The notes beneath the pieces were generated by a model. That model ran no database searches, had not been told where the DNA came from, and saw only the letters and a program-made list of their open reading frames with translations. A stretch of DNA of 64,000 nt from Tubiluchus corallicola (Eukaryota > Animalia > Priapulida): contig JAQGDQ010002382.1 of NCBI GenBank assembly GCA_030141605.1, forward strand, positions 299,594 through 363,593. The letters run 5' to 3'. Positions 5,744-63,519 of the stretch are shown piece by piece (the stretch's first letter is position 1; the number at the start of each line of letters is the position of its first letter). The position numbers and the translations under genes were made by a program.

Positions 5744-19569
<13,826 letters not shown>

Positions 19570-22800: not shown

Positions 22801-24251
22801 TTCTCCTACTTAACTTAAAATCTCTTCTTTGTCTAAATCTAAAACACACAACTTTAAAATGATGTCAGTAAATTGTAATTTTATGTGTTTGCTGTGTTGA
22901 TACTGATAATAACAATTACACTGTATAAAACGTTTAGTGCATGCTGTTGTTTTATTCTTGTTTATTTAAACTTTAACTATATTTCTGTGTTACAATAAAT
23001 GAACTCAAAACAGAAAATGCAATGCCTTATATGTTTAAAATTCCTGGCAAGAGCAAGGGGGTATTTTACAGTACAATTCTAATGTTGTATATGATAGATA
23101 TCATGAAGCAACATATTTTTATCATAATAGCTTATTGCCACACACACTAACATTTCTGGAAGTCAGTGATCAAAAGTTATATTACTGCATACCTAATTGC
23201 TCAGTTTAACAATATTAAATTATAAATCTACTCGTATTTTGCTTAATAAAAACTTTAATTTGCAAACAATATGCAGCCAATAATATGCTAGAATCTGTTT
23301 TGTTTCTCGTGTCAAGTCAAACTCATGTACACAACCTTTTAAGATCACTCTCCACAGTAAGAACAGTGACACATGGGGACCTCGTGTTAAAATTAATGCT
23401 TTAGTATTTACAGTGAATTGCAGCTTTGTATTATGTATAACAAATAGATATCAGTTGTCAGAGTTTCACAATGTAGTGAAATGAAAAAGTGAACTCATAC
23501 AGTATCATGCTGAGTGCATTTGATGCTGCTCATTGTCTAATAATCAAAATACGAGAAAAAATTCACTAATAATTCTTGTTGCTGGTGTTGATCAAATGCA
23601 CTAATCTTGTAATCTGATGTGACTTATCAAATGCACTTTCATTGTTTCTTTCATACACGTTCCTTAATCATTGCCTTCTTTTTGGTTGTTAAATGTACGG
23701 TGTCATTTTGAGTAATTTATCTTACTTAGCTGTCCACATTGTTTTTCATTTGACAGGTAGTTTTGATTTTTGTTAAGCGGCCATGCAATTTGTTTTTTTT
23801 ACAGAAAAAGTGGCAATTTGTTAACATTCTACTTTATTTACTCTCATTTTATGTGTCTGTTTATGTGCGTAATGTATAGGTATTGTAAATTTTTTTCGTA
23901 TTATGCTACTCTAATTTTTTTTCATTAAATTTCTATTTATGTGCAAGTTGCTGCAAATCTTTTAGGTGCTAATCGATGAAATAAAAGAAATGTTCACCTT
24001 CCATGCAAATAATTATATGTAAGTCTTAGTAAAATTAATAGTTGATCACTACAGCAATTTACCGTTAAAAATAATTAACAATGTTAATACTCAATTAAAA
24101 ATTATTCGCAAATGAGCATAACCATTAACCAAGCCTAGCCCTAAGTGTCCAACGTGAGACTCGTCGTAAATATTCCGTCAATGTGTTACCAAGTGATTGG
24201 CTTTCCTGTTGAAGATATCCCGTAATGCTTATTGGGGAATCGCGACGTGAC

Positions 24252-26346
24252 GTGCAGAAATTGCTGAAATTCTAAACAATATTTTAAAAACAGGCACATT
24301 TCCGCAGGATATTCATAAAGGAATACTTATCCCTTTACCCAAGCCAGGTAAGAAACGAGGTCCTATATAAAATCTTAGACCATTGATGTTGCTTACACTA
24401 CTATACTAAGGAAGATCTGTACCGTTACCGTCGAAGGATAGAGGTTAAGCATACATAGCTTATAAACCTCTCCACTCTTCCTTGTTTACTTTGTCAATAT
24501 TAAGAATACATAATGGGTGGCGACACTACGATCACGAAGCGAAGCATAGGGTTTCTTGTTGCCATTGTGGCAACCTGGGGTCTATATATTTTTCAGCATT
24601 GTTTTTCCAAAATCTATGGAGACGAGACTTAAACTGGGCAGGATTGGGTGCTTGTATTACATGGTCAGGCAGCTTGTTCCACTCATTAATTACTCGCCTT
24701 GCGAATGTGAATCTTCTTCTGTTCCACCTTTTGGGAACTGTTCTCTTCTTGATTTTGTAGGAGTGACCTCTGGTACCATGATATGTCTGTCGGTGAAAAA
24801 ATATTTCACTGTTGATGGTTTCTATGCCTTTAAGAATACGGAATGTTTGGATTAAATCTTGTCTTTTGCGTCTGTATTTCAGAGTTGTAAGGCCGAGAAT
24901 CTTAAGTCTTGCAACATACGGTAAATGAGAAATGGCAGGTACAAGTCTAGTAGCTCGACGTTGTATACTTTCAATTTTTCTTATCATGTCTTGACGATTT
25001 GGGCTCCAAATCACATCACCATAATCCAGAATAGGACGAACGATTGATTTATATAGTTTGGTCGCCACTGTATGTTGACTAGGATCTATGACAGGTTACA
25101 CACTTACATTCCAACAAGCCAAGCAGCATATCAACCAGGACGGAATACTACTGAATTAGTACAAGCCTGTAAATTACTAGCCGGAAAAGCCATCTCTTCT
25201 GCTGATTACTCAATACATATTCATGATCGATATGTCAAAGGCCTTTGATTGTGTGCGGAGAAAAACTCTGCTATGCTGCCTGGAAGAAATCCTTGAACCT
25301 GATGAAATATACATCATAAGTATAATGTTAGAAAATTTATTAATTCAAGTCAGGTGTGAAGGGAAATTGAGTCAGCCGTTTTCTACAGACAAAGGAGTAC
25401 CTCAGGGTGACTGCCTAAGCCCTGTACTTTTCACTTTATATCTTGCCATAGCTCTCACTGAGGACAAAGTTATACCATTGAAAGACCTAGAAGATCACAA
25501 CTACACAATTCTTGATCCTGAATTAATACCGAATGAAGTAAGACAAGAATGCAGTTACAGTTCTCTACAAAGTAAGTCAACTACTATATCTATGCAGTAT
25601 GCTGATGATGTGGCATGGATTACAAGAAACAAAGAAGACGTAGATGAAATAAAAAACTCAATAGAGGAGAAACTGAACAGAATGGATCTCATTGTAAACA
25701 AAAATAAAACTGAAGAGTTTCACATAACACGCCATGGTGATGAATCATGGCAAAGATGCAAGTATCTCGGTAGTCTGCTGACAACAGAAGACGACATATC
25801 AAGACGGAAGATAATGGCATTATCAGTTTACTCAAAACTTAAAAAAATTTCTTTGGAAACAAAAATTAGAATATTCTCAGCCTTAGTTGAAACTGTATTT
25901 CTATATAACTCTGAGCTCTGGACATTAAAAGCAAATCATAAAGCTGAAATCGATGCGTTTCAAAGGCGAAATTACAAAAACATGTTGGGTATTAGATGGC
26001 CAAAGAAAATTTCAAACAAAGATCTATATGAAACAATAAAAGAAGAACCTTGGACAAGAAAAATAAAAAGACGCCGTTTAAGATGGATTGGGCATATGCT
26101 TAGACTACCTGATGATACTCCAGTGAAGATAGCTCTTCAACAAGCCATAGAACCAGCTAAAAAACCTGCAGGAGGACAAATGTTAACATATTTAGATTTT
26201 GCACAAAAAGATTTAAACACTTTAGCATTGATCCTTAGAAATAAATCTACTTGGGGCATTGCGGCGAGCAGGGAGTCCTGGCATAGGGAGGTGAACAGAA
26301 TCATGTCACTGGATGTGTGATTCATTGGATCATGATGATGATGATG
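24252..26346 (+). mobile_element. 5'-truncated RTE-clade LINE (reverse transcriptase), interrupted by a CR1 fragment
   Basis: ..ILIPLPKPGKKRGPI*NLRPLMLL..ILRKI (24255-24420) resumes after 25068 as CMLTRIYDRL..SQAAYQPGRNTT. ORF 25223-26320 has IDMSKAFD, KGVPQGDCLSP, YADD, KYLGS and RRLRWIGH. Ends in a (GAT)n tail. Confidence 0.92.
24421..25068 (-). mobile_element. CR1-clade LINE 3' fragment
   Basis: ORF 24532-25068: LYKSIVRPILDYGDVIWSP..IESIQRRATRLVP..YVARLKILGLTTLKYRR..TRGHSYK..FTFARRVINEWNKLP, a typical CR1 ORF2 C-terminus. Short tandem tail (acggta) at its 3' end (~24421). Confidence 0.92.
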
Positions 26347-28971: not shown

Positions 28972-29326
28972 TGTTGTGGAGATCGCTGACGTCAAGTAGA
29001 ATTGCACAGAACGTCGTAGAATGTTCTGTCGGGATGACCGCTTTAGCGTCTGGATTGTTCTCGAACATTTGTTCCAGAAGTTTCTGCAGTGCGCTATATA
29101 AGGCGAAGCAGGCTGCCGACAGGGGATCGCACGCAGATCTAACACGGACTTATACTTACGCATTTATACTTACTTAAACGTTTTCCAGATTTTCACGTTT
29201 ATTGTAATCATTTCAACGTTCCTTCATCTTTTGTATAGTAGAATTCTCGCTAAATAAAGCAGTTTTATTTGACGGCGTGTTTTCTGGTTTTCTCTACGAG
29301 CCTTTCGAGAGAAACTAAACACAACA
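28972..29326 (+). mobile_element. Solo LTR (355 bp) with 5-bp TSD
   Basis: CTAAC|TGTTGT...ACAACA|CTAAC; TATATAA at 29095, AATAAA at 29253. The empty site (gatctaacatgtac) is present in the paralogous units at ~45117 and ~59504. Confidence 0.92.
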
Positions 29327-29421
29327 CTAACTTGTATATTAAGTAATACGATACAGACAACATACTAGATTAAAAATTTCTAGCTTCATATTTGCATTTT
29401 GTTTCTACTCAACAGACCAAG

Positions 29422-32400
29422 ATGACAAGTTTAAATAAGGGATGCACGTTGCCTTTATATGTGGTGGATGCTTTCACAAGCCAGGCATTTGCTGGAAATG
29501 CTACTGTTGTATGTCTAGTGTCACACAATCAGGTAAATTAATGATCTGTCATTAACAAACTTTTCGTCTTAATCTGTTGTCAGCTATTTTTATTGCACTG
29601 TTCTTCACTGCAAATAACTTGTGATCCTATAGCACAAAATCAAAGTCAATGTATGTGGCTTAATCGCACTCTTATTTATGTAAAGATACGAGTTTTTAAC
29701 TACTAACTGATAATGTTTCTTGTTATTTATTTATGCGATTAACTCAATTAATCTACTGTGTTACAATAAATAAATCATTATATTATAATATTTAAATCAC
29801 AGGCTTGCATAATAAAAATCACTGGTTTCCTTTTAGAAATATTGAAACAAATTTAACAAGTTAGATGAAAATAAAAGTGTCCATTTGGTCACAGCTGAAA
29901 TCAATTTGTAATCAATTAAACTTATAACATCAGTCATAATAATGTCAGGATAATGGTGACTGTGCCTTTCAGTTATGTTTGTATTTGGATCTATTATAAC
30001 AGTAGGTGTTTTTCATAAAGCGTTAGTATAATTTTAAGTGAGAATTACAATGAGTATCAATGCAGAAAATGCATTTTGTTGTTGTTGTTGTTTCCGTCTC
30101 TACTGAGGCTTTGTAGTTTCTTTTTGCAATTAGAATAGATATTCTGTGTATTATTTGAACTGTACAAAACAGCAGATATGTTATATGTTCAAAATGTATC
30201 CCAAACTGCCCAAAAGCTGTGTTGTTTTTATTAGTTGAATTGTGGTGTAATCTGCATTTCTTGGGTTATATTATTAAATGGCTGTAGACATTGTGATGTA
30301 TATAGTCCTTCGGTTATTCTATTTTAGGTAATCGACGATGCAAAAATGCAAAAAATTGCTTTCGAAATGAACTTGCCGATAACCGGTTTCATTGCACTGC
30401 CAACAGAAAACGATTCGTTCAAGAATTCTTCCCGTTTTGGTCTACGATGGTTTACCCCTGCCTGCGAATTCCAACTGTGCGGTCATTCCACTCTTGCTGC
30501 TGCCACGGTGCTTTTCTCTTGTGTTGGTAAATTTGCTAAGCAGGACAGAAATGTAAATCTAGAAGCTGAAGCTGAGTCAGTTGCTACTAAATCAGCTGAG
30601 TCACACAGTAAATCAGCTAGCTCGGCTGAAACTGAGTCAGTTGCTACTAAATCAGCTGACACTCACAGTAAATCAGCTAACTCGGCTGAAACTGAGTCAG
30701 TTGCTACTAAATCATCTGACACTCACATAGTAAATCAGCTAGCTCGGCTGAAGTAATTTTAATGTTGTAATTGTAATTTTAAACAAACAAGCATACAAAA
30801 ACATACGTAAACTTGATAAAATCCTAAACAAAAAAATCTTTGCTTACGAATAGCCTAAATTGCTGCAGTTCAAGAATATGCCGGTACATGGTTTTTAAGA
30901 ACGTGACAACTGACAACTGTGTGAGTGACAGTACTTTCTCTACCTTACTGCAGATGCTAGCAGTGCAGCACCATCATGTGCTCTGGTTCCGTACAAGTAT
31001 AAAGAAAGAACTAAAGAAAAAAGACTTATTGTATTGAATATTATCGATAATATTGAGTGAAAATAGGGGGCGCTGCAGTTCTGATACTTATACACAACCG
31101 CCACTGTGCTGCATAAACACTAGGCCAAGTTGACCAAAACCTAAATTTTCCTAAGTGAACTTGGTTCAGGAATTGACACTTATGATTACTCCTTCAGTGG
31201 CTTACTTACTGGAGTTCACCATTACGAATGACAGATTGTGATTCTTATGTCCTGCAGCAACAATTTAGTGTTAGTTTGAATAGTTCTATTTGTGAACTGG
31301 TTTAAGTGATTCGACAGCACGCCCCTTTATATGCCATATATCTCTCATAATTTATGTACTCGCGATGTTAAAAAAATCTCCTGGCTTATAATCTGGCAAC
31401 TCTAGCAATGGATTTATTGAAAATATAATTTAAATCCAACCCTTGGCAAGGCTTATCTGGATTACCAACAAATCAATACTAAACACCAAAATGATCCCAT
31501 ACCTGTGGCTAATGTTGCCTATTTGTGCATTTTATTTAATTTTGAATTGACTGCTTTCTCATTCAAAAATTTCTGAAGTTTAGTATCTCTGCCAGCACAC
31601 GTACAATATGACCGCATTGCAACCAGTGATTTCATCATCATCATAAGCCTGTTACATTATTTCTAGACATTGGGCAGGCAAAATTCTAAAATAATAGAAA
31701 TCTGTCCTCAAAACAGGTAAACACAGCAGTAATCTAACAAAAACTGGACACTGCTATGCCAGTGACTTTTTCGCAAGAGCAAAAATCATCACAGCCGGCA
31801 AAAATGTCAGCTACCTCGACTTCCGTCACCGAGCGGCTGGCACGACTAAAGCTGGGTTTCTTATCGGCTAGGTCGACTGTAGAAATAAACCGGCTGGAGC
31901 TGAGCTGAAGCGGTACGGCTCTGGCTTCTATGGCGATCCCATAAGTATTTTTCACGTTGTCTTGAAAATCAGGGAGTTTTTATTTGCCAACCTAATACCA
32001 AACGAATTCACTGTGAATTTATTTGTGTGCTAATGTGTTTACTTCAAATAAGCTTCCATGCAGTTTTGCTTTTTTTTCTTCTATTGCTTGGAGATTGTGT
32101 GCCTTTTTTTGCATTTTAGGACTTAAAGCATTCCGCTGTTTTCAGTTCTCATCATATTTGGCATTTTCTTAGGAGACTGTCAGCTTTCCCTTCTTTTTAT
32201 CTGCACTTTAAAAAATTGGAAAAGAAAAATAGTGCCTGTTAACCATATTCTAAACCATATTCTATTCAAATAATGAAATTACAATTAGGCATTGCAATAT
32301 TTGATTGTATTGCTAATCCACTAATGCTACGATTAGGCTCTAAATATTTGTGAAATTGATAATCATTATGATAGGCAGGTCTGAAATTAAAAGGCAGCTA

Positions 32401-35400
32401 GTGAATATATCTACAGCTATGTAAATTATTACAGGTAACGAATTTACAGAGATTACATTTGATACGCTGAGTGGACCACTTGTTGCCAGAAAAAAAGAGG
32501 ACAATATGATTCTGCTTGATTTTCCTGCTAATCCAACTATTAGTGTTAACAAGGAAAATGTGAAAGAGCTTTTAAAGGTACCTACTCTTTTGAATGAGCT
32601 GTAAAACAAGTTTGCTTGGGTTTTTGTTGTAAGTAATTTTATCATTGAAGCTTTTAGCAGGTAGGTGGTTGACAGTTTGGAAGACATTCTGACACCTTGG
32701 TATATTTATGTATTTTAGGAAATTTCCAGGCTTACTCGTTTTAACTGTGTGTGCTGGCCATGTTTTTCAAATGTATCATATGGGCTGTTTTTTTGGTCAA
32801 TAGCTAAATTGCAGCTTTGCACAGACTTTTTTGAAGGCATATTACTTAGTATTATCTTACTTGTATTACTTAGTATTACGCTTTCTTGCCTGCAATACTC
32901 ATGTAAATAGAAAAGACACATTTTCTAGCTTTATGTAAGTAAAGGGCTTTCTTGCCTGCAATACTCATGTAAATAGAAAAGACACATTTTCTAGCTTTAT
33001 GTAAGTAAAGGGCTTTCTTGCCTGCAATACTCATGTAAATAGAAAAGACACATTTTCTAGCTTTATGTAAGTAAAGGGCTTTCTTGCCTGCAATACTCTT
33101 GTAAATAGAAAAGACACATTTTCTAGCTTTATGTAAGTAAAGGGCTTTCTTGCCTGCAATACTCATGTAAATAGAAAAGACACATTTTCTAGCTTTATGT
33201 AAGTAAAGGGCTTTCTTGCCTTTTATGACAATTTTTTGGTGTTTTAATTAACCCTATTCAGTTTTTGAATTTACCTGAAGAGGGGGACAGCATGAGAGGA
33301 GCATGGAAATTATTCAAAGGTGGGACGGGGTGGGGTGGTTACAGTAATGGTGGCAGTGAAGCGCTTGCTGTTACTTTATTGTTTCTTTTTACTGGCTGTT
33401 ACACACCCGTGCATGCATGCACACGCACGCACACACCCACACACACACACTGTTACATAATATAGTAAAGTATATCATATCACTCTTTTCGGTGATTCTA
33501 GATTGCATAGCACTCCTACAATAGGACTAGTTGAAGTTTAGCAAACAACTATCACAATTACTAACCTGACATTCTGTGCATTAAATTTAGAAATCCACAG
33601 ATTAAAGATACGAGACAATGCCGCTATGATAAAACTAAGGGTGCATTCAGACTAGCGAGTTTTCTGTTGGGAGTTTTTCTCTAACACCAAACTTGCAAGT
33701 GTGAACTGCTTTGCGAGTTACTATCGACAAGTCATTGCACACTTTCAGACAGTTGCTACGAAATGATTTCCTGTTTAGTGTGAACAGTCTCAGCGAGTTA
33801 CTCTTGACACTGCTCCCAGTGAATAGAGGAGGAGTATCAGCTGGTGTTTACTTCATGCTGGAGAATTTTGTTCTTTAGTCTGAACGTGCTTGCGAGTTAC
33901 TTGGCGAGAAAATTTGCTAGTATGAATGCTTCATTACTCTCAAAAGCAGTGCGACAAAATATCAACATTCTTGCAACAGTCAAGTCATCTAAATTCTTCT
34001 TTGTAAAAAGTATTTTGGTCCAAACTTTAATACACTGTAGAATCTTACGTGAATGTTTTTTATAATACAGGTACTTGTTGGAGATTTACCTATTGTTGAT
34101 GTGGAGTATGCTCCTGTTATACAACAAATGATTGTGTGTCTTCAAGATTCTGTGTCCAGGTGTGCATGTTGATAATTTTTTATTTGGTTTGTCGTGTGTC
34201 ATTCGTTTTGCACTTTTCATTTGCTTTCATGTTATTATACATACTATAAAATTGCTGCAAATTGCACAAATCTGCAATTAATCTCTATTTCTATGAAGTG
34301 TGTTTGTGTATGTTTGTTTATTTGTTTGCTATAAAGTCCTGTTTTATTTATTTAACTTAAAATTTGGTCTATTAAGTTGCTAATACATCACACTCCCCAT
34401 TGAATTATGGGATATGTACAGTTATGTGCAGAAATCAATTAACAAAAGCTGAAGTCAGTCTACTTTTTAACTTTTGGCAGGAGTTCTACTTACATGAAAA
34501 AGAATTTAAAATACACTATGTTTCAGTCCATTGTTGGGTTCATTCTCTCATTGTCTCATTTTTCATTCATTAGTCATTGATGTTATTATTGTTGTAAGTA
34601 TAAGGCTTCATGTGTGTGTGTGTGTTTTACCTTCAGGCAAGGACTACTATACAACAGGACGTGCACAGTCAGATCTCTGATTCCGCCAGCGGAGGCGATC
34701 AATACTTGTAATGAACGTAATCTAGAAATAGTGCGCTTTAGAGAGTAGTGATCTTGGAAATTAAAGAATGGACGGATCGGTAGATAGCGAGTATTATTTT
34801 TCATTTAATTGGTTCTTTACATTACGGGAGAAAAGTTCCAATTGTTTATTTTATGTATCAAAGGAAATTAGTGTTCATTTTTACTTCTTAAATAGCGCAC
34901 TACTTTAGGCGTAAGTGTGTTTTACCGGAAGTAGTGCTTTGTCATTGTTAATGTGTCATTGTTCAAAGTCAAGTGAAGCGTTGTTTTCGTGCTTGTGTTT
35001 GTTTCTTTTGGGATTATTTTCAAAATTTCTCGTGGATTTTATACATCTGTGCTCAGCAGCATGCCTAACAAGGTAACTATGACACGGAGAACAAGTGTCG
35101 TGTGTTCAGACTGCCAAGAGATCATGTAGAAAAACAGAAATGGCTAAGTGTTCTTCCCCCACGCGAAGGCTTTGTTGTTGATCCATCGAAATTTTTCATT
35201 TGCGAAAAGCATTGGCCATCGGATACTCAAATAGTCAAAATTCCAGGTGGTCACACCAGCCAGTGGATCCACCCAGTATTTTCAACGTTCCAACATCATG
35301 CTTGCCCACTCCAAAGCCACCACCTCGCCCTCCAAAAACTGAGGACCAGCAGCTGAATTATTTCTTTAAAAAGGATAAAATAACTTATCTCAATGAATTC

Positions 35401-38400
35401 ACTCCTGAGAAAGACCTGCATAAGACGTATCAGAACCTCATTATATCTCGCGCACAAGACAAATTTGTGTGCATGTTCATGGAAGAGGACCACAGTCAAT
35501 GTTATATGTCAATTATTGTTCACAATAAGCCTACCTTGTGTTCCCCTCTTACTCTGTATGCTTTCAAAAACGGGATCAGTGTGCCATTAATTAAAATCCT
35601 CAGTCCGAACAATGGACTGTCCTCTTACTCACAATTTTTCGCGGTTGTGAATTCTGTTGTCAACCACATTCATCATGTTGATGATATTGTCAACAAAGTG
35701 ACAAAGTCTCTTGAACTTGAACTAGCTCAAAATCGAGAACAATCTCCTAGTGTTAATGCTAAAGCCAAGAAGCTCAAATTTCTAACACGACAGCTTCGAC
35801 TATTATGTGATAAGACTTTCACAGTGTCTGATTATTGCTTTGCAATAGAGTCATTTCCCCATTGCAATTACGAACAACTGCGTGACTTTTTAGTGTTACC
35901 CAGCAAAAGAAAGCTGCAGTCAGTTATTTCATCGACAGATATTGACAAGGTGCTAGGTAAAACATTTCAGAAAGTAAAAAGCTCTGAGCAGAAACACTGT
36001 ATGCTATTGGTGGATGAAGTGAAAATATGCCCAACAGTGGCTTAAGGTCCCATGTTGCTTAATTTTGCAGCTAAGGACACTGTGAGCAACAAGCTAATCC
36101 TGTCATTCGTGATAAAACAATAAAGAGACATTTATTTTCAGGGAGATCTTGGAAGCAAGGGCACCGGATATTTTTGCTCTTCCTGCAGCTAACACATCCC
36201 TGATGAAACTGTACGGTGTCCACTTGACGGTTAAAGCTCCAGCCAACTCCGGCTATGACTTTTATTCCCGCAGTTTTTTTCCCTGGATTGGAACGTCTGA
36301 AGATCCAGTTTGTGGTAAACAATTTGCATTGTTTATGTAAGAATGAATGAATATACTATTGATATATATGAATTAATTATAATTATCTTTGCTTTAAAGT
36401 AAAGCTAAACAAAAGAAATTATGTTTATTATTCTTGATGTGCACCATTTTGCTGCGTCTGTGTTTGCCAGTAAGTGGCGTACTCTACTGGCGTTGTTTTG
36501 TAACTTTTCTTTCTCTTTTGAAATGCAGCACAACTAGGGTTGTGGTTTATACAGTAAAATAATTAATATTGGAACATACGATAATTTGAGGCTTCATGCC
36601 ATACAAAAGAGGTAGCTATACGAAGATTGTTAATTAGTTAGTTAGCTATATAAGCTAGTCAGTTAGTCAATCAGTTAGTTTTGGCAAGTTTTCAGTATGG
36701 CATGTTGGGTTGGACAGCTGGGTGTTCTTGGCACTCTTGGCGGCTTTACATTCTTGGAGGCTTGGCGATGGGGTGGAAGACAGAGGCAAGATTTGGAGTG
36801 GAAAACAGGTAGAGTGTCGGCAGTGGGACTGATGTAGGAAGATAGTAGGGTGTGAAGAGAACCACCTAAACTGCAAGAGTGCCCAAATCAATACCAAAAC
36901 ACTAAAATGATCCCATGCGTGTGTCTAACATTGCCTATTTTTGTGTTTAATTTTGAATTGACTGCTTTCTCATTAAAAAATTTTTCAAAGATAGTATCTC
37001 TGCCAGCACACGCACACAGTATGACCACGAATCCGTAGTGCATTCGCCAAATTTCACCCAGTGATTTCGTCATCATCACAAGCCTGTTATGTCAATTGTA
37101 GACATTGGGTAGGCAGAACTCTAAAATAAAAGAAATCTGCCCTCAAGACAGGTAAACACAGCAGTAACCTAGCAAAAAACTAGACACTGCTTTGGCAGTG
37201 GCTTGTTCGCAAGAGCTAAAATCTTCGCAGCCGGCAAAAATGTCGGCTGGCTCCACTCATCTCTGAGTGGCTGGTGCGACTAAAGCTGGGTTTCTTATCG
37301 GCTAGGTCGACTGTAGAAGTGAATTGCCTGGAGTTCAGCTGAAACGACATGGCTCATGCCTCTAGTTTTAAGATGAAGATTAGTTTTAGTTTTGTTCTGT
37401 GTTAGTCTTGCATTTTCTGTCTTAAGTCTGACTGAAAATCACTATGTCACTGAAGGAGTTGCCAGTTTTATGGTTTTTCTGTTGAGGTGGTTTCTAACTT
37501 TGCAGTTTTTATGAGAATAATGAAATTTTGGCCACAAAATATTCTATCCAGTACAGAAGGACTTATGTGGTAATAGTTCCAGTGAATAAAGTATACATTG
37601 TAGGCCTGATTTTCAAAAACATGAAATGTTTTTTTTTCAAAAACATGAAAAGCCTATCTTAATTCATTATATTTGCATGTTTAAAGTTTGCAATGTTTGA
37701 TGCCAGTAATCTCCAACTAATTTCTGACTATGTTAGGGTCGGCTCACACTATATTTGGTTGTTACTGGCAAAAAGTGCTGGGAAAATCAACTTTTCAAGG
37801 TAGGATAATTTGCTGTTTTATGACGTTTGTTATAATTTAACTTATGATGCTTATTCGTTTATGATCTGATTTTGTATGTTTTTCAGTATGTCAGTAGATC
37901 TCAATTTAAATTCTGTGCAAGATTATTACCATGCTGACAAAGAGCGACATAGGTTTGATTTACTTAATGTCGTACAGCACACTGTAATTTAATGTGTGTA
38001 AAGTCCTCGAAAGGTTAAAAAATGAAAATTTCCAGCCATTGTAAATAACTGCGTCTTAGTTTACATAATTTTTCACAAAAAATTACAGAATGCTATAAAA
38101 TATAATTGTTATTTTGAACAATATATATTTTTAGTGGCCAGTCACAAAGTATAATTACTGCCCTGCAATACCATATCACATAGACTTGTGCAGCATATGT
38201 TACCGGAACAGTATCTTGCTTAACCCTTTTACCGCCTCCATGATGTACTATTATGTCTATTTTTTGTATTGGCTTATGCCTATTTGATGTACATATTTAT
38301 CATTAGTATCTAGCGCTCCATTTAAACTCTGGCGAAGTGTATTATCGCTTAGTTTAGTACGTTTAGACAGCTAGCAGGGCCCAGCACAGCTCCAGGAATA

Positions 38401-39391
38401 TGTGTAAACTGAGTTTGACCTTATTTCCTTGGCTACATAGCACATCTGCTACGTACATATATGTCTTCGACTGTGAATTCTGCATCATTTGAAATTTGCT
38501 GTTTTTGCACATTTTTATTATTATTAATAATAATCTTTTGTTCGTATAAAATTTTTTATACAGCAATGTAGTTTTAGTATAAATAATTAATACAATGAAA
38601 AATAATTTTTGTTAGTAATTAAAAAACAAGAGATTTAGAGATTTTAAGACAATTTTCAGCAAAAAGCTTAAAGATTTGATAGTTTTGGAGGTTTTAATGC
38701 ATATGCACACTCTCCCACTTATTTTAGAGATGATGGACCTATATATATATATATATATATATATATGTTCTAAACATTCTTGATAGATATATAAAAATGA
38801 TCTGTAAAGGGATTATTATTCTTGTACACAATTCTACGTGATTTTAAGGCTTTTGGTTTTTGCATGTATTTTACTTTTGATAAATGTATACCAAAACAAA
38901 TATATTTTTAATTGTGACTTGCACAAGTTGATTTTCGGGCTGAATTTAGGGGCTGAAGCTGTTTTACTTGCATGACACTATAATTTTGCTTTGGAGGTTC
39001 ATTTATTGATCTAAATTCAGTTTCATGTGCAGTTTCATATCACCATATTGCCTCATTTGCAAATAAATATAAAACTTAAACAAGTAAGTAAATATATAGG
39101 CCTAACAAATTTTCGTGAATGAATGTAATGATTGATTGATTGAATGAATGAATGAATAGGTGGGTGCATGATTGATTTTTATTTGGCTTGTTGAAATCAT
39201 ATCTTTTTTTCTTATGAACAATATCAAAATAAAGTTGCAAAGTTGTTATTTTGTCATGTGCTTTGTGCGTTTTTGTAGCTCGTCAGTGCTCAAAAAGAGG
39301 AGGAGATGTCTACGTGAATGTACGAGAAGACAAGAGAGTCGAGATTGGAGGCAAGTCTGTAGTCGTTATAGAAGGAAAGATCTATTTATAG
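29422..39391 (+). CDS. PBLD: PhzF/PBLD-family protein (phenazine biosynthesis-like, DAP-epimerase fold), copy 1, 296 aa
   Basis: Exons 29422-29532, 30328-30526, 32435-32577, 34071-34159, 36142-36314, 37737-37799 and 39279-39391 total 891 nt, in frame. Motifs VVDAFT..FAGN, LRWFTP..LCGH, FDTLSG, LDFP, DFYSR.FFPW..EDPVCGSAH, ARQCSKRGG. Confidence 0.95.
30563..30751. repeat. ~60-bp tandem repeat x3 in PBLD copy 1 intron 2
   Basis: The GCTGAAACTGAGTCAGTTGCTACTAAATCAGCTGAC..CAGTAAATCAGCTA unit is repeated; copies 2 and 3 have a single unit. Confidence 0.9.
31473..31930. repeat. Dispersed ~450-bp repeat present twice per PBLD gene
   Basis: Homologous to ~36888-37365, 46693-47155, 51840-52320 and 61080-61540 (shared AAATGATCCCAT..GGCTAGGTCGACTGTAGAA). 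Confidence 0.8.
32880..33220. repeat. 66-bp minisatellite x5 (copy 1 only)
   Basis: CTTTCTTGCCTGCAATACTCATGTAAATAGAAAAGACACATTTTCTAGCTTTATGTAAGTAAAGGG at 32881, 32947, 33013, 33079 and 33145. A single unit is present at ~48107 and ~62494. Confidence 0.97.
33639..33933. mobile_element. PIF/Harbinger-type MITE (also 48610-48904 and 62999-63293)
   Basis: TAA|GGGTGCATTCAGACTAGCGAGTTTTCT ... AGAAAATTTGCTAGTATGAATGCTTCA|TTA: imperfect TIRs with TWA flanks. Confidence 0.7.
34638..36044 (+). mobile_element. Truncated THAP-domain / P-element-like transposase
   Basis: Starts CAAGG exactly where copy 1 departs from copy 2. THAP-like FRLP..KWL..FFICEKHW..DPPSIF (35061-35290, frameshifted, N-terminal Cys pair missing), then YEQLRDFLVLPSKRKLQ..CMLLVDEVKI (P-transposase core start), cut at 36045. 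Confidence 0.85.
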
Positions 39392-42300
39392 TCTAAATCA
39401 TGGAATCGTACTTTATCTGATTGCTTTATCACAGTGTTGCCATTCTGGTTGATAAAGATTATTGTTTTGGAAGCTAAAAATTATAGTATTTTCCACCATA
39501 TTATCGCATCTTCATGCAAAATTCAAAATTTCTGTGTATTTGCAGCAAATTGTTATTATTATTGTATAATTATGCATTTAATAAGTAACCATAACACCAA
39601 AAAGTACTGTAGAAAACTGGCTATTTGTTTTACAGATTTTATTTTCCACTCATTGTAAAAAAGGTGAAACTGCAAGAGAAACAAGAAAAAAGAACATGAA
39701 ACAAAAGTAAATCCATAACAGACATGCAAAAAATAAATAAAGGAACAAGCATTAGCAAATTAACAAGCATACTGAAGCAGAATTTACTAATAAATAAACT
39801 TCCTGACATATCACAAATCAGCATGCACGCCTACACAAAAACACGCATATGCATATGCAGTTGCAAAAAAAAAACAATAATTAGGCATCACCGTAACACT
39901 ATTAGAAACTACCAAGCTGACAAATAAATTACTGCAAAGTTCTGCATAAAAATGAAGAAACATAAGAACTTACAAACGTTTGAGGATCTGTAGAAAAAAC
40001 TTTAAGCCAGTCTTCAGAAATTAACAGAGACATACTGATTCTACAACGGTGGCATACTGACTTCACAACTACTATACCACTAAAAACACAATTTTTTCCT
40101 ATTCTAAGGCTATCTAACCACTCATACAAGAGCGGCCAAGCATGTCAAACAAACTCTACAGGTAATGCAAAATGAATAATGACACTCTAGAATCAAAACA
40201 CCTGGCTTCACTGTACCCAAGCTGGCCTGAGAGATAACAAGTACCATTAGCAAGTGTAAAATTAAGTTTATCAAAACACAGTAGAATGTCGCTACCAGTC
40301 TCTTTTGAAATTACTGCTTTTTTCTGAAAACTTTGACCACTAATTGCGACCAGCATGGTTTGGATTACAACGAAGTCAAAATTTGTTTACTTTCCCCTGG
40401 TAAGCAGTAATGTTTTTTGTCTAAATTATCGTATAATTATCTGTTATCGTACAGTCTGTTTTTTTTGTATGGTATGAAGCATCAAATTATCGTATATTCG
40501 AATAATTATCATATAAAAAGCAACCCTGTTTATCATTTTCATGTCAGGTAAGTGCTAGAAAATAGAACGAAGGTAGAACTGTAGCAGTGCGTAGTTAATA
40601 TAAAAAAGAGTTCCTTTAAGGGAAAATAGAATGGTGTATAATGTTCTCTTATGATCAGTGATTATTTTATCATTGTTGTGTTTTTAATTAGAAATGCTCC
40701 TTTTAAGGGAAAATTAAAATAAGCTTTTAGCATGTAGTGAACTGAGTGGAATTCTGAAATAGTGTTGTTCCCTATAATAATTTTACAATTTTAGTCAAAG
40801 GATTATGTGCAGTTTTAATAGAAATATTATTTTATGTTCTATGCACTAAGTGGGATGGACGTTTTTGTTGTTGTTGATGTATACTATCTTTTCTCTATAT
40901 ACCAGCTAGACTACACCACTATTGTTATGCATTTGGGAAGTTTTACTTATGGACCAAAGTTGACCTTACCTTTTTTGCCCATTTCTGAAGTTAATTATTG
41001 TAGGTTTTATATTTTAGAATTTAAATGTGCCACATTGTTGCTTTATTAGGGTAGAGGATTGAGTGATATTTTATCAATTGTGCCAAATAAATTAACTTGT
41101 TCTCGGTTAAAGCGGCTTAGGACTATAATAATGGCGGTTATATGCGCCATGCAATTTCTATATTTGAATGAAAATACAGCATTATTGTGTAAATTGTGCC
41201 AAATAAGTTAATATGTTTCTGCTTAAAGTGGATTATCAAGTTACTGCTGTGTTATTTGATTACAGTAATTTTTGTGGCTTTATAAATCGACCAAGTCCAC
41301 ATTAAGATGAAATTATATTTTTTGTAAACAGGATGAAACAGGATAGGAAATAAGTTAACAGGTTTCTGCTTAAAGCAGATTACGAAGTTACAGATGCGCT
41401 AAGCTATACTTTTTGATTACAGTTATATTTATAGCTGTATAAATCGTGGATTGAATAATTAAAATGAAATTATTTTTGTTTGTTTAATGAGATTATTCTT
41501 GTTTATTTAAACTTTAACTATGTTTCTGTGTTACAATAAATGAACTCAAAGCAGAAAATGCAGTTCCTTATATGTTTAAATTCCTGGCAAGAATAAGGGG
41601 GCATTTTATAGTACAATTCTAATGTTGTATATGTTAGATATCATGAAGCAATATAAATTTATCAGAATAGCTCATTGCCACACTTAAGATTTCTGGAAGT
41701 CAGTGATCAAAAGTTATATTACTGCATATTTTATTTAATAAAAACTTTAATTTGGAAACAATATGCAGCCAATAATATGTTAGAATCTTGCTTGTTTCTT
41801 TTGTCACATCAAACTCGCATGTACACAATCTCTAAGAACACTTAAATTGTTGCATGAGGTCTGTCTCAACAGTAAGAACAGCTACGTGTGAGAGTTTTCT
41901 ATACAATAGCTTACAATAACTGTACGATAAAATGATTTACTATTACCAGTTGACAGAGTACCAAAATGTGTAGAAATGAAGAAGTGAACTCATAAGATAT
42001 CATACTAAGTGCAGGTGATGCTACTCATTGTATAATAAATAAAAATTGGAAAAAGTCAAAAAGTTGATAAATCTTGTTGCTGTCTCAGTTGATGTGACTT
42101 ATCAAATGCACTTTCACTGTTTCCTTCATGCACTTTACTTAATCACAGCCTCTTTTTGTTGTTAGCTGATGTTATTTTGCGTAATTTGTTGTGATTTTTG
42201 TTATAAAGTTATGCAATTTGTTTTGTTTTTTTACAGAAGAAGTGGTAGTTTGTTAACATTCTACTTTATTTAATCTCATTTTAGGTGTCAGTTTATGTGC

Positions 42301-42591
42301 GTAATACATATTTATGGTAAAGTTTTTTCGTGTTAGGCTGCTTTAAAAAAATTTCTTATTGACAAATAAGAGAAATGCTCACCTACTATGCAAGCAATTA
42401 TTTAAGTCTTGCTAAAATTAATAAATGATCATGGCAGCAATTTATCGTTAAAAAAATTAACATTGTTAATACTAAATTACTAGCAAAATGAGCTTAACCA
42501 AGCCTAGCCCTAGGTGTCTGATATGAGAGTCGTCGTAAATACGCTGTCAACGCGTTGCCAAACGATCGGTTTTCCTGTTGAAGATATCCCG

Positions 42592-43320
42592 TTGTGGGAT
42601 GTGTGAAAAAGTGGGATGCATCGTGAGGGATATTTTAAATTTGAGTGATATAAACAAAATTGGTAGGTTTGCAATACAGATAAGGCTGAACCTCTTACAG
42701 TCAGTTATGATACTAGTGATTTATAATACAGAAACATGGAGTGAAGTAACAAAAGTAGAAATGGGTAGGATGGAAGAAATTCAGAAGGATATGTTACAAA
42801 AACTAGTAATTTATCACAGAAGGTGTCAACTAGTTATAGGGGTATGCTAATAGAACAGTGTACATAAGTATATACTGTAGGTATACACTTTGGGCATATT
42901 AAGACTCTTAAAAAGTTAACCTGGAAGAAACATGTAAAAGAAAACGTAAAAAAATTATTAAAATTACTGCACATCACCAGATATACTCAAGAACTAAGTT
43001 AAGGTTTTTATCTTATGAGCTGAGCACGATAAACCCAAGCAGTATATAACTGAGTTAACACTAGAACAGACAAAAAGGGTTTTAGAGATAAAGCTTAATA
43101 TGCTACCACTAAAATGTAATTATAGAAGTAAGTTTAAAGGAGATATATGGTGTCCGCTATATGGTAAAGACAGGATCTATTTAGATTGTTATAAGAAATG
43201 TGCTACCAACTACAGAAGTAAATTTCCAAAGTCTGATTGAGTCAGAAGATGCACAAATAGCAAAGCAGTAGGTGGAATTTGTTCAAATAGCAATGGAAAC
43301 AAGAAAAAGAAGAGGTGTCG
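42592..43320 (+). mobile_element. Degenerate LINE RT C-terminal fragment (also ~56980-57710)
   Basis: IYNTETWSEVTKVEMGRMEEIQKDMLQKL.. followed by stop-riddled KLNMLPLKCNY..CPLC. Confidence 0.6.
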
Positions 43321-43609
43321 TGCTGGAAATTTAGCTACAATAATAATAGTCATAAATGGTTGATTAGCATCAATGCTGATTACGTTACTTGTGTCTTGCG
43401 CGGTAACATTCCTTTGTGCCTATCTAACCAGATAGAGTTAACACCGAGGAAACAACGAAACAACATGTGCTTACTGGAGAACCGCAACTGCCGCGACATG
43501 ACATAGAGGAAGTTGAGGAACTGCAAGATGTAAAATGTACAACAGTCGTCGTATAGAAAAATATAATCTTAAAGTGAACAATACAAAGACCAAAGAATAC
43601 GTTATACCC

Positions 43610-44560: not shown

Positions 44561-45214
44561 TTTTTTGCCATGATACGCTATTGTATTTGTGCAATAGAAC
44601 AAAATTGAAATTGAAGATGCGGTAATGATTCGTGGAAAAGATGTAAATAACTTGGTAACTTGTAAGACACCGATGCCCACATACAAAGAAGGAAAATTCT
44701 TAAATTGTCTGCTTATTCACATATCTCAATGATTTTTGATAACAATAGACTTTCTCTTGAAACCAGAGTCCGGATTCTTTCAACTTTAGTTGAATCTGTG
44801 TTTTTGTACACTGCTGAGCTATGGACAATAAAAGTTAAGCAACAGAAGGACAGTTGATGCTTTTCGAAGACGTCTCTATAGGAAATTACTCGCAATTAAA
44901 TCGCCTGATAGAATATCCAATGATGATCTGTATAATGCAGTCAAGAAGATTCCTGGTAGTAGACAAATACAAGTAAGAAAATTGCTTTGGATTGGGCACA
45001 CACTAACAGTAAGATTACCTCCTCTTCCTATGGTATTGCATAAAGCTCTTGAAACGACAAAAAACCAAGAGGCTGTCAACTAGGCTGACGTATTTAGGTT
45101 TTTGGTACAGATTTATGATCTAACATGTACATTAGGCAATTTGATACAGACATCATACTATATTCAAAATTTGTAGCTGCATATTTGCCATTAGTTTCTA
45201 CTCAACAGACCAAG

Positions 45215-59601: not shown

Positions 59602-62600
59602 ATGACAAGTTTAAATAAGGGATGCACTTTGCCTTTATATGTGGTGGATGCTTTCACAAGCCAGGCATTTGCTGGAAATGCTGCTGCTGTATGTCTAGTG
59701 TCACACAATCAGGTAAATTAATGATGATCTGTCATTAACAAACTTTTCGTCTTAATTTGTTTTCAGCTATTTTTATTGCACTGTTCTTCACTGCAAATAA
59801 CTTGTGGTCCTGTAGCACAAACTCAGTCAATGTATGTGTCTTAATCGCACTCTTATTTATGTAAAGATATGAGTTTTTAACTACTAACTGATAATGTTTT
59901 TGTTATTTATTTATGTGATTAACTCAATGAATTAACTGTGTTACAATAAATAAATCATTATATTATAATATTTAAATCGCAGGCTTGCATAATAAAAATC
60001 ACTGGTTTATTTTTAGAAATATTGAAACAAATTTAACAAGTTAGTTGAAAACAAAAGTGTCCATTTAGTCACAGCTGAAATCAATTTGTAATCAATTAAA
60101 CTTATAACATCAGTCATAATAATGTCAGGATAATGGTGACTGTGCCTTTAAGTTATGTTTGTATTTGGATCTATTATAATAGTAGGTGTTTTTCATGAAG
60201 ATTTAGTATAATTTTAAGTGACAATTACAATGAGTATCAATGCAGAAAATGCATTTTGTTGTTGTTGTTGTTGTTGTTTCCGTTTCTACGGAGGCTTTGT
60301 AGTTTCTTTCTGCAATTCGAATAGATATTCTGAGTATTATTTGAACTGTACAAAACAGGAGATATGTTATATGTTCAAAATCTATTCCAAACAGTCCGAA
60401 GGCTGTGTTGTTTTTATTAGTTGAATTGTGGTGTAATCTGCATTTCTTGGGTTATATTATTAAATGGCTGTAGACATTGTGATGTATATAGTCATTCGGT
60501 TATTCTATTTTAGGTAATCGACGATGCAAAAATGCAAAAAATTGCTTTCGAAATGAACTTGTCGGAAACCTGTTTCATTGCACTGCCAACAGAAAACGAT
60601 TCGTTCAAGAATTCTTCCCGGTTTGGCCTGCGATGGTTTACCCCTGCCTGTGAAATCCAACTGTGTGGTCATGCCACTCTTGCTGCTGCCACGGTGCTTT
60701 TCTCTTGTGTTGGTAAGTTTGCTAAGCAGGACAGAAATGTAAATCTAGAAGCTGAACCTGAGTCAGTGCTACTACATCAGCTGACACTCACAGTAAATCA
60801 GCCAGCTGGAGTTCACCATTAAGAATGACAGATTTTGATTCTTATGTCCTGCAGCAACAATTTAGCGTTAGTTTGAATAGTTTTATTTGTGAACTGGCTT
60901 AAGTGATTCGACAGCACACCCCTTTATATGCCATATATCTCTCTATATCTCTCATATTTTATGTACTCACAATGTTAAAAAAAATCTCCTGGCTTATAAT
61001 CTGGCAACTCTAGCAATGGATTTATTGCAAATATAATTTAAATCCAACCCTTGGCAAGGCTTATCTGGATTACCAACAAATCAATACTAAAATACCAAAA
61101 TGATCCAATACGTGTGGCTAATGTTGCCTATTTGTGCATTTTATTTAATTTTGAATTGACTGCTTTCTCATTCAAATATTTCTGAAGTTTAGTATCTCTG
61201 CCAGCACACGTACAATATGACCGCATTGCGACCAGTGATTTCATCATCATCATAAGCCCGTTATGTCAATTGTAGACATTGGGCAGGCAGAACTCTAAAA
61301 TAAAAGAAATCTGCCCTCAAAACAGGTAAACACAGCAGTAATCTAGCAAAAAAACTGGACACTGCTATGCCAGTGACTTGTTCGCAAGAGCAAAAATCTT
61401 CACAGCTGGCAAAAATGTCAGCTACCTCGACTTCCGTCACCGAGCGGCTGGCACGACTAAAGCTGGGTTTCTTATCTGCTAGGTCGCCTGTAGAAATAAA
61501 CCGACTGGAGCTGAGCTGAAGCGGTATGGCTCTGGCTTCTATGTCGATCCCTTAAGTATTTTTCACGTTGTCTTGAAAATCAGGGAGTTTTTATTTGCCA
61601 ACCTAATACCAAACGAATTCACTGTGAATTTATTTGTGTGCTAATGCGTTTACTTCAAATAAGCTTCCATGCAGTTTTGCTTTTTTTCTTCTATTGTTTT
61701 TTTAGATTGTGTGCCTTTTTTGCATTTTAGGACTTAAAGCATTCCGCTGTTTTCAGTTCTCATCATATTTGGCATTTTCTTAGGAGACTGTCAGCTTTCC
61801 CTTCTTTTCATCTGCACTTTAAAAAATTGGAAAAGGAAAATAGTGCCTGTTAACCATATTCTAAACCATATTCTATTCCAATAATGAAATTACAATTAGG
61901 CATTGCAATATTTGATTGTATTGCTAATCCACTAATGCTACGATTAGGCTCTAAATATTTGTGAAATTGATAATCATTATGATAGGGGGGTCTGAAATTA
62001 AAAGGCAGCTAGTGAATATATCTACAGCTATGTAAATTATTACAGGTAACGAATTTACAGAGATTACATTTGATACGCTAAGTGGACCACTTGTTGCCAG
62101 AAAAAAAGAGGACAATTTTATTCTGCTAGATTTTCCTGCTAATCCAACTATTAGTGTTAACAAGGAAAATGTTAAAGATCTTTTAAAGGTACCTACTGTT
62201 TTGAATGACCTGTAAAACAAGTTTGCCTGGGTTTTTGTTGTAAGTAATTTTATCATTGAAGCTTTTAGCAGGTAGGTGGTTGACAGTTTGGAAGACATTC
62301 TGACGCCTTGGTATATTTATGTATTTTAGGAAATTTCCGGCGTTACTTGTTTTAACTGTGTGTGCTGGCCATGTTTTTCAAATGTATCATATGGGCTGTT
62401 TTTTTTTGGCCAATAGCTAAATTGCATCTTTGCACAGACTTTTTTGAAGGCATATTACTTAGTATTATCTTACTTGTATTACTTAGTATTACGCTTTCTT
62501 GCCTGCAATACTCATGTAAATAGAAAAGACACATTTTCTAGCTTTATGTAAGTAAAGGGCTTTCTTGCCTTTTATGACAATTTTTTGGTGTTTTAATTAA

Positions 62601-63519
62601 TCCTATTCAGTTTTCGAATTTGCCTGAAGAGGGGAGACAGCATGAGAGGAACATGGAAACTATTCAAAGGTGGGACGGGGGTGGGGGGGGGTGGGGGGTT
62701 ACAGTAATGGTGGCAGTGAAGCACTTGCTGTTACTTTAATGTTTCTTTTTACTGGCTGTTACACACACGTGCATGCACGCACGCGCACACACACACCCAC
62801 ACACACGCACTGTTACATAATATAGTAAAATATATCATATCACTCTTTTCGGTGATTCTAGATTGCATAGCACTCCTACAATAGGACTAGTTGAAGTTTA
62901 GCAAACAACTATCACAATTACTAACCTGACATTCTGTGCATTAAATTTAGAAATCCACAGATTAAAGATACGAGACAATGCCGCTATGATAAAACTAAGG
63001 GTGCATTCAGACTAGCGAGTTTTCTGTTGGGAGTTTTTCTCTAACACCAAACTTGCAAGTGTGAACTGCTTTGCGAGTTACTATCGACAAGTCATTGCAC
63101 ACTTTCAGACAGTTGCTACGAAATGATTTCCTGTTTAGTGTGAACAGTCTCAGCGAGTTACTCTTGACACGGCTCCCAGTGAATAGAGGAGGAGTATCAG
63201 CTGGTGCTTACTTCATGTTGGAGAATTTTGTTCTTTAGTCTGAACGTGCTTGCGAGTTACTTGGCGAGAAAATTTGTTAGTATGAATGCTTCATTACTCT
63301 CAAAAGCAGTGCGACAAAATATCAACATTCTTGCAACAGTCAAGTCATCTAAATTCTTCTTTGTAAAAAGTATTTTGGTCCGAACTTTAATACACTGTAG
63401 AATCTTATGTGAATGTTTTTTATAATACAGGTACTTGTTGGAGATTTACCTATTGTTGATGTGGAGTATGCTCCTGTTATACAACAAATGATTGTGTGTC
63501 TTCAAGATTCTGTGTCCAG
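59602..63519 (+). CDS. PBLD: PhzF/PBLD-family protein, copy 3 (exons 1-4; continues beyond the window)
   Basis: Exons 59602-59712, 60514-60712, 62046-62188 and 63431-63519. By eye these are identical to copy 2. Confidence 0.93.

What the first reader, a model, noticed from the sequence alone, without database searches (positions are those of the whole stretch)
30373..30390. PBLD copy 1 keeps a full ORF but has lost the PhzF catalytic glutamate
Seen: TTG CCG ATA ACC GGT (L-P-I-T-G) versus TTG TCG GAA ACC TGT (L-S-E-T-C) in copies 2 and 3: four substitutions in four codons, all non-synonymous. Also GNATVV vs GNAAAV and GHST vs GHAT, with all seven exons and splice sites intact. Established: the Glu of the SET motif is the catalytic acid/base of PhzF (E45). 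Inference: a pseudoenzyme/binding protein, or a switch to chemistry that needs only the two cysteines.
Basis: partly seen in the sequence, partly recalled or inferred. Interest (0 to 1): 0.75.

Follow-up and report, generated by a model that had tools for sequence, protein, structure and literature searches.

The report
Duplicated PBLD with rebuilt substrate pocket
In this animal, one copy of a duplicated PBLD gene has an intact reading frame but has replaced the family's conserved glutamate and most other pocket-lining residues while keeping two cysteines, so it is likely a working enzyme (predicted to be an amino-acid racemase or epimerase) with a new substrate rather than a dead gene.

Summary
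Copy 1 of three tandem PBLD genes has seven intact exons (296 aa) and reads L-P-I-T-G where copies 2 and 3 read L-S-E-T-C; residue 55 maps to PhzF Glu45. The four-codon cluster alone is not unusual (P about 0.22). The gene-wide pattern is: 6 of 15 mapped PhzF pocket positions differ between copies 1 and 2 (1.1 expected), the rest of the protein is under purifying selection (dN/dS about 0.2), and both cysteines and the amino/carboxylate-binding residues are unchanged. Both copies carry two cysteines, which PhzF lacks, so Glu55 need not be catalytic here. Plant homologues with two cysteines often lack this Glu (50 of 96), and nine pair Pro with Val/Met as copy 1 pairs Pro with Ile. Best reading: a neofunctionalised two-cysteine racemase/epimerase-like enzyme with a more hydrophobic pocket (about 0.55). 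Open points: no RNA data, no assay, public contigs showed only the S-E-T-C form at these codons (inconclusive), and allele versus paralog was not tested by depth.

The parts
29422..29532 (+). PBLD copy 1 exon 1 (aa 1-37); Asn26 kept, Ala28Thr and Ala29Val
   Evidence: a copy-1-type contig with 0 other letters over 29401-29536 in run X1
30328..30526 (+). PBLD copy 1 exon 2 (aa 38-103 plus 1 nt), PhzC-PhzF domain
   Evidence: Pfam PF02567 E 4.3e-17
30373..30390 (+). L-P-I-T-G-F in place of L-S-E-T-C-F; Ile55 at the PhzF Glu45 position, Pro54 at Ser44
30469..30489 (+). Phe85 (PhzF Leu69 / HypE Leu85 position), first cysteine Cys88, Gly89, His90, Ser91
   Evidence: Cys88 aligns with the first DapF and proline-racemase-family cysteine; copy-1-type contig 30405-30517 with 0 other letters in X1 and X2
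32435..32577 (+). copy 1 exon 3
34071..34159 (+). copy 1 exon 4 (identical to copy 2)
36142..36314 (+). copy 1 exon 5; Ser225, Ile230, Thr232, Ser233 differ from copy 2; Asp235 (36302-36304) and second cysteine Cys238 (36311-36313) kept
   Evidence: Pfam PF02567 E 1.2e-07
37737..37799 (+). copy 1 exon 6 (rest of Gly239, Ser240)
39279..39391 (+). copy 1 exon 7 with stop codon
45215..54263 (+). PBLD copy 2, seven exons, 296 aa, keeps S-E-T and both cysteines
59602..63519 (+). PBLD copy 3, exons 1-4 (window ends in intron 4); gene body almost identical to copy 2, may be a very recent or false duplication

Best explanation
Copy 1 is an intact tandem duplicate of PBLD that keeps two cysteines and has changed most pocket-lining residues, and it is likely an active enzyme, predicted to be a cofactor-free racemase/epimerase whose pocket was likely reshaped by selection for a different, more hydrophobic substrate. 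Shown: ORF, the substitutions and where they fall, both cysteines in both copies, purifying selection outside the pocket. Inferred mechanism: as in DapF, proline racemase, CntK and HisR, Cys88 and Cys238 would act as a thiolate/thiol pair that removes and returns the alpha-proton, while Asn26, Gly89, His90, Asp235, Gly239 and Ser240 would hold the amino and carboxylate groups. With two cysteines present, position 55 would be a side-chain specificity site rather than the catalytic base, so Glu-to-Ile, with Ser54Pro, Phe85 and the 225-233 changes, would retune specificity; a non-polar amino acid is the likeliest substrate class.
For: (1) Non-synonymous differences are 15 in 98 sites within four family motifs versus 11 in 587 elsewhere (P 1.6e-7); outside the motifs dN/dS is about 0.2 (P 9e-5); motif divergence 0.153 exceeds intron divergence 0.038 (P 6e-6) and synonymous divergence 0.079 (P 0.04). 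(2) With a residue list taken from PMC4586147, 6 of 15 mappable PhzF pocket positions differ (1.06 expected, P 2e-4); 4 of 13 still differ when codons 54-57 are removed (P 0.005). The nine unchanged positions are 26, 88, 89, 90, 235, 237, 238, 239, 240. (3) Copy 1 alone departs from positions at least 80% conserved in 183 homologues at 28, 29, 54, 55 and 91. (4) Of 118 scored plant-type homologues, 96 have the second Cys and 50 of those 96 lack the Glu, versus 2 of 22 without it. All 9 with Pro at 54 have Val or Met at 55, 4 changes on the tree, for example L-P-V-T-C, I-P-V-T-G, M-P-M-T-A; seven of them form one clade across six legume genera in an unsupported FastTree. (5) Cys88 aligns with the first cysteine of DapF (HHalign probability 86.6) and of the proline-racemase family; a model of an amphioxus PBLD matches PhzF (Z 31.0), DapF (22.9), proline racemase (21.9), CntK (21.4) and HisR (20.1). 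(6) None of 33 proline-racemase-family proteins has Glu at ligand site 1, a known specificity site (PMC4364671).
Against: No expression data and no assay. The P-I-T-G letters were not seen in public contigs: runs X1, X2 and X4 each showed only an S-E-T-C contig over 30376-30385, and the contig depth (338) lay nearer the value predicted if P-I-T-G were absent (330) than present (308), though the same prediction failed on other contigs. The Glu-loss/second-Cys link in plants is not significant on independent pairs (median p 0.25), and that set was gathered with a Glu-less query. In the mostly animal set all 19 of 183 two-cysteine proteins keep the Glu and all 8 Glu-less ones have Thr. Only 7 of 21 differences fall on the 91 highly conserved sites, as random placement would give (P 0.48); overall non-synonymous divergence (0.038) equals intron divergence. 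Thr28 and Ser91 occur in none of 183 or 118 homologues, so they could be damaging. HHalign placed the second cysteine motif two columns off DapF's, and position 55 to proline-racemase site 1 has only weak support (probability 9.5). My four motif windows were drawn after I saw the differences.
Confidence: 0.55

Rival explanations
1. Copy 1 is a folded but catalytically dead binding or regulatory protein (pseudoenzyme); the pocket is free to drift or adapts for binding.
For: Glu55 is present in 175 of 183 mostly animal homologues; in PhzF, E45A, E45Q and E45D are inactive (PMC5524880). Purifying selection outside the pocket fits a kept fold. Search listings show mammalian PBLD in signalling roles (titles and abstract starts only).
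Against: Drift would not exceed the neutral rate, yet motif divergence is 0.153 against 0.038-0.079; both cysteines and the six backbone-binding residues are unchanged; similar Glu-less two-cysteine forms are kept across plant genera.
Confidence: 0.12
2. Copy 1 is a young, unexpressed pseudogene that has not yet gained a stop or frameshift.
For: Overall pN (0.038) equals intron divergence (0.038); differences hit conserved sites at the random rate; copy 1 has a solo-LTR-like insertion 95 bp upstream of the ATG and a THAP-transposon fragment in intron 4.
Against: Decay should be spread evenly; it is ninefold enriched in the pocket motifs (odds ratio 9.5, P 1.6e-7), and the other 253 codons show dN/dS about 0.2. 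All splice sites are intact.
Confidence: 0.12
3. Copy 1 is an active enzyme, but the chemistry is not amino-acid racemisation (for example a double-bond isomerase or dehydratase of the same fold).
For: The fold also houses hydroxyproline dehydratases, LigU and PrpF isomerases; no substrate is known to me for any animal PBLD, and my searches returned no paper whose title or abstract start gives one.
Against: Papers tie the Cys/Cys pair to racemases and epimerases (PMC5958127; PMC11602996), and dehydratase-type members are described as Ser-Thr (PMC4364671).
Confidence: 0.11
4. Copy 1 and copy 2 are divergent alleles or haplotypes assembled in tandem, or P-I-T-G is a private variant or an assembly error.
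For: In run X2 copy-1-type and copy-2-type contigs have depths 209 and 234, about 1:1 rather than the 1:2 that three copies predict; only S-E-T-C contigs were seen at these codons; sample X4 lists no copy-1-type exon 2.
Against: The upstream flanks of copies 1 and 2 are collinear but only 70-87% alike against 92-96% in the gene body, too far apart for alleles of one haplotype block. Copies 2 and 3 differ only at one G-run over 5.2 kb, so base accuracy looks high. The same sample gave copy-1-type exon 1 in X1 and copy-2-type in X2, so these contigs drop one of two short alternatives (mechanism inferred).
Confidence: 0.1

Closest known systems
Animal PBLD / MAWBP (Pfam PF02567)
   Same: PF02567 hits on exons 1, 2, 5 and 7; up to 146 of 296 positions identical to amphioxus PBLD; groups with animal PBLDs in an unsupported FastTree.
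   Different: Most have Glu-Cys-Thr (154 of 183); 19 have Glu-Cys-Cys; none of 183 combines no Glu with two Cys.
Plant PhzF-family proteins, including (recalled) Arabidopsis DAAR1/DAAR2 isoleucine racemases
   Same: Two cysteines in 96 of 118; Glu replaced by Gln, Val or Met in 51 of 118; Pro-Val/Pro-Met forms mirror copy 1's Pro-Ile. A review table lists AtDAAR1/2 as Ile racemases (PMC7432710).
   Different: A separate clade, so the match is convergent. That DAAR1 is a PhzF-family protein is recalled; its sequence, cysteines and Glu state were not seen, and the primary paper was not held.
PhzF (DHHA isomerase, Pseudomonas)
   Same: Fold (homologue model Z 31.0); His74, Asp208, Gly73, Gly212, Ser213, Asn18 equivalents kept.
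   Different: PhzF uses Glu45 and has Ala72/Thr211; copy 1 has Ile and Cys/Cys.
Two-cysteine cofactor-independent racemases/epimerases (DapF, proline racemase/HypE, CntK, HisR)
   Same: Same fold (Z 20-23); first cysteine aligned; second Cys-Gly motif precedes the matching helix in the homologue model.
   Different: 10-17% identity to the homologue model; sequence family is PhzF, not DapF or Pro_racemase; activity untested.

Membership tests
PBLD / PhzC-PhzF family (PF02567) | Pfam PF02567 match above cut-off | tested here: met
   exon 2 63 bits, exon 5 32 bits, cut-off 27
PBLD / PhzC-PhzF family (PF02567) | His and Asp of the two active-site motifs (PhzF H74, D208) | tested here: met
   His90 and Asp235 present
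PhzF sensu stricto (Glu-dependent DHHA isomerase) | catalytic Glu45 | tested here: not met
   Ile55
PhzF sensu stricto (Glu-dependent DHHA isomerase) | no cysteine pair (Ala72, Thr211) | tested here: not met
   Cys88 and Cys238 in copies 1 and 2 (PhzF residues from PMC4586147)
Two-cysteine racemases/epimerases (works-like) | DapF-like two-domain fold | tested here: met
   shown on an amphioxus homologue model (pLDDT 94.1), not on copy 1 itself; profile with copy 1 as master matches DapF at probability 86.6
Two-cysteine racemases/epimerases (works-like) | first catalytic cysteine | tested here: met
   Cys88 aligned to DapF and proline-racemase-family cysteine
Two-cysteine racemases/epimerases (works-like) | second catalytic cysteine at the matching place | tested here: inconclusive
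   Cys238-Gly motif present, but HHalign to DapF is two columns off and no C-terminal alignment to proline racemases was obtained
Two-cysteine racemases/epimerases (works-like) | cysteine-dependent alpha-proton exchange or stereoinversion | not testable with these tools
   needs an assay
DAAR1-like amino-acid racemases | same active-site residues as Arabidopsis DAAR1 | not tested
   DAAR1 sequence was not among the 120 listed plant hits by name; paper not held
Pseudogene | stop, frameshift or broken splice site | tested here: not met
Pseudogene | loss of purifying selection across the gene | tested here: not met
   dN/dS about 0.2 over 253 non-motif codons, pairwise between copies 1 and 2
Pseudogene | no transcript | not testable with these tools
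   no RNA holder listed

The most novel reading that the evidence does not exclude
Copy 1 is an animal cofactor-free amino-acid racemase built from PBLD, which reached by convergence the same Pro-hydrophobic-Thr pocket motif seen in plant two-cysteine homologues; the paralog pair then reveals the unknown chemistry of animal PBLDs and a new route to D-amino acids in animals, including the two-cysteine PBLDs of zebrafish, birds and amphioxus.
Probability: 0.3. Interest if true: 0.75.

Novelty: new variant of a known kind. Interest (0 to 1): 0.52.

Why it matters
I know of no established reaction for animal PBLD (recalled; searches listed no paper whose title or abstract start gives one). Two paralogs 93% identical that differ almost only in the pocket are a ready-made experiment: assaying both tests whether two-cysteine PBLDs are racemases and whether the family Glu is catalytic or only a specificity residue. 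It also warns against calling a PhzF-family protein dead because it lacks the Glu. Interest is tempered because Glu loss recurs in plants and in an Anolis paralog, and nothing here is shown to be expressed or active.

Tried and rejected
Whole genome: none is held, so other PBLD copies outside the window were not searched. Expression: no RNA holder listed; the one guessed-RNA run X6 laid no contig; this is no evidence either way. Depth arithmetic on contig means as a test for P-I-T-G was inconclusive because it missed control contigs by 30-130. A depth comparison with the single-copy neighbour gene was not obtained, so allele versus paralog rests on flank divergence. The four-codon cluster as evidence by itself was rejected (P 0.22). 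My first reading that 'no Glu plus two Cys' is unique (0 of 183) was dropped once longer and plant proteins were examined. Homologue search with copy-1 exon 2 gave only 3 hits among 55 candidates. ESM Atlas did not hold the exon; a zebrafish homologue returned only PBLD clusters. Profile alignment of position 55 to proline-racemase site 1 and of the C-terminal half was weak. The spliced copy-1 protein was not folded; only a homologue was. Earlier scan notes: none near or by sequence; two PBLD word hits did not bear on this. Papers: I saw passages only of PMC5524880, PMC4586147, PMC5958127, PMC11602996, PMC4364671, PMC13692746, PMC4978887, PMC7432710 and two bioRxiv preprints (10.1101/2024.09.03.611005, 10.1101/2022.12.07.519424); Strauch 2015 and Blankenfeldt 2004 were not held; no supplements were read, and the alignments in the supplements of PMC11602996 and PMC5958127 may bear on the position-55 mapping.

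Full report
Setting. The window is AT-rich animal DNA with spliceosomal introns; no whole genome is held. Self-comparison shows three tandem copies of one gene on the + strand, identified as PBLD/PhzC-PhzF by Pfam. Copies 1 and 2 are complete, seven exons and 296 aa each; copy 3 is cut after exon 4. The phylum was not determined; the best homologue shares 146 of 296 positions with copy 2.

Observation. All of it is in the sequence: P54-I55-T56-G57 against S-E-T-C, T28-V29 against A-A, S91 against A, intact splice sites. Exon 2 matches PhzF (1t6k) over query 4-62 / chain 31-83, which puts residue 55 on Glu45 and residue 90 on His74 if the 6-residue gap lies in the loop between them, as it does in the YddE alignments printed in the same call. 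Glu45 is essential in PhzF (PMC5524880, passages). The cluster of three changed codons in four is common by chance given 21 differences (P 0.22).

Is it real? Logan contigs of runs X1 and X2 (one sample, possibly the source of the assembly, so not independent) hold copy-1-type sequence with no other letters over 29401-29536 and 30405-30517, but over 30376-30385 only an S-E-T-C contig is listed. The same sample gives copy-1-type exon 1 in X1 and copy-2-type in X2, so short alternatives are evidently dropped, and the absence is inconclusive. A depth calculation did not settle it (observed 338; 308 if present, 330 if absent; controls missed by 30-130). Copies 2 and 3 are identical over 44432-49611 except at one G-run, so four clustered base errors are unlikely. 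Copy-type depths of 209 and 234 in X2 do not fit three copies, so copy 3 may be false or polymorphic, and an allelic reading is not excluded by depth. Against alleles: the upstream flanks of copies 1 and 2 are collinear but only 70-87% alike, while gene bodies are 92-96% alike; I infer an older tandem duplication with gene conversion of the gene body. A different sample, X4, shows one exon-2 contig reading S-E-T-C and E-V-P-L-C-G-H-A-T, nearer the family consensus (letters), which agrees with copy 1 being the derived form.

Pattern of change. Copies 1 and 2 differ by 26 non-synonymous and 16 synonymous nucleotides. In four motif windows (43 codons, drawn after seeing the data) there are 15 non-synonymous changes in 98 sites; elsewhere 11 in 587 (P 1.6e-7). 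Outside, dN/dS is about 0.2 (P 9e-5). Inside, 0.153 exceeds five introns (224 of 5890, 0.038; intron 4 left out for its insertions; P 6e-6) and synonymous sites (16 of 203; P 0.04). For an independent definition I used the PhzF pocket residues named in PMC4586147 (passages): 15 could be mapped, the C-terminal ones by ungapped count from Asp208 (His155 and Ala183 could not). Six differ (54, 55, 85, 225, 230, 232; 1.06 expected; P 2e-4), and 4 of 13 without codons 54-57 (P 0.005). Unchanged are both cysteines and the residues that bind amino and carboxylate groups in PhzF and, by proposal, in HisR (PMC11602996, passages). That paper also names the residue three before the first cysteine (HypE Leu85, DapF Ala80) as a side-chain contact; here that is position 85. 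Counter-evidence: only 7 of 21 differences fall on the 91 sites at least 80% conserved (P 0.48), and overall pN equals intron divergence.

Homologues. Of 284 stored proteins, 197 were 250-400 aa and 183 kept the second motif: 175 have Glu55, 19 have Cys238 (named ones include zebrafish, birds and amphioxus; all keep Glu), 8 lack Glu (all Thr238). These were gathered with Glu-bearing queries. One Glu-less form is an Anolis paralog cluster found in two species. Longer proteins left out of that count included plant ones with two cysteines and no Glu. A search with one such domain listed the best 120 of 642 hits; 118 were scored: Cys238 in 96, Glu in 66, Gln 25, Val 18, Met 8, Asp 1; Glu absent in 50 of 96 with the second Cys and 2 of 22 without (Fisher 2e-4). 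The Glu state changes at least 20 times on the tree, but the link to the second Cys is only a trend on independent pairs (3.6 same way, 0.5 opposite; median p 0.25). All nine proteins with Pro at 54 have Val or Met at 55 (4 changes), eight of them with two cysteines, and Gly at 57 occurs in 10 of 118. Copy 1's P-I-T-G therefore resembles a variant that plants keep, reached independently.

Fold and mechanism. An amphioxus PBLD model (pLDDT 94.1) places the Ser54 equivalent in a loop just before a strand, where Pro is tolerated (PDB 4dun reads N-L-P-E-T). It matches PhzF-family structures at Z 28-35 and DapF, HypE-like, proline racemase, CntK and HisR at Z 20-23. The nearest structure, 1s7j, also has the second cysteine. 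Profile alignment puts Cys88 on the first cysteine of DapF and of the proline-racemase family; the second motif is off by two columns against DapF, and position 55 against proline-racemase site 1 is only weakly supported. Proline racemases and DAP epimerases use two cysteines and PhzF a glutamate (PMC5958127, passages). I infer two-base stereoinversion by Cys88/Cys238 with position 55 as a specificity residue. Arabidopsis DAAR1/2 are listed as isoleucine racemases (PMC7432710, table); their place in this family is recalled, not checked.

Verdict. Observation confirmed; interpretation partly supported. Most likely a neofunctionalised two-cysteine PBLD with a rebuilt, more hydrophobic pocket (0.55); pseudoenzyme 0.12, young pseudogene 0.12, other chemistry 0.11, allele or artefact 0.10. 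A new variant of a known kind; interest 0.52, rising to about 0.75 if racemase activity is shown.

Noticed in passing
window 28972-29326: Solo-LTR-like insertion (TGTTG...CAACA, 5-bp CTAAC target-site duplication, TATA-like and AATAAA elements) 95 bp upstream of copy 1's ATG, absent from copies 2 and 3; could alter copy 1's transcription.
   Followed up: partly
window 34640-36045: Truncated THAP-domain transposon-like fragment in copy 1 intron 4 (Pfam THAP E 3.5e-4, below cut-off); copy 2 has unrelated sequence with a tandem repeat there.
   Followed up: partly
window 40299-49611 vs 54718-64000: Copies 2 and 3 are about 95% alike in the spacer but identical from 44432 on except one G-run; with 1:1 type depth in run X2 this suggests recent conversion or a false duplication.
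   Followed up: partly
window 5743-19569: 3' exons of a calcineurin A-like gene upstream of the PBLD array, recognised by eye from recalled motifs; not run through a tool.
   Followed up: no
window 24150-24260, 42480-42600, about 56900: CpG-rich element shared by all three spacers; with the acceptor-like sequence before each ATG it may mark the promoter and a non-coding first exon.
   Followed up: no
window 25080-26300: Decayed LINE-like reverse-transcriptase remnant, recognised by eye.
   Followed up: no
P0239, P0220, P0215, P0221, P0227, P0168: Named zebrafish, bird and amphioxus PBLDs carry the second cysteine with the Glu kept: candidate two-cysteine enzymes in model animals.
   Followed up: partly
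P0259 cluster: Anolis PBLD paralog with L-T-V-T-A in place of L-S-E-T-A, cluster members from two species: another animal Glu loss, with Thr at the second site.
   Followed up: partly
window aa 85, 230, 233 (30469, 36287, 36296): At these pocket codons each copy lies one nucleotide step from a common family residue (Val; Val or Asn; Pro), so both paralogs may have diverged.
   Followed up: no
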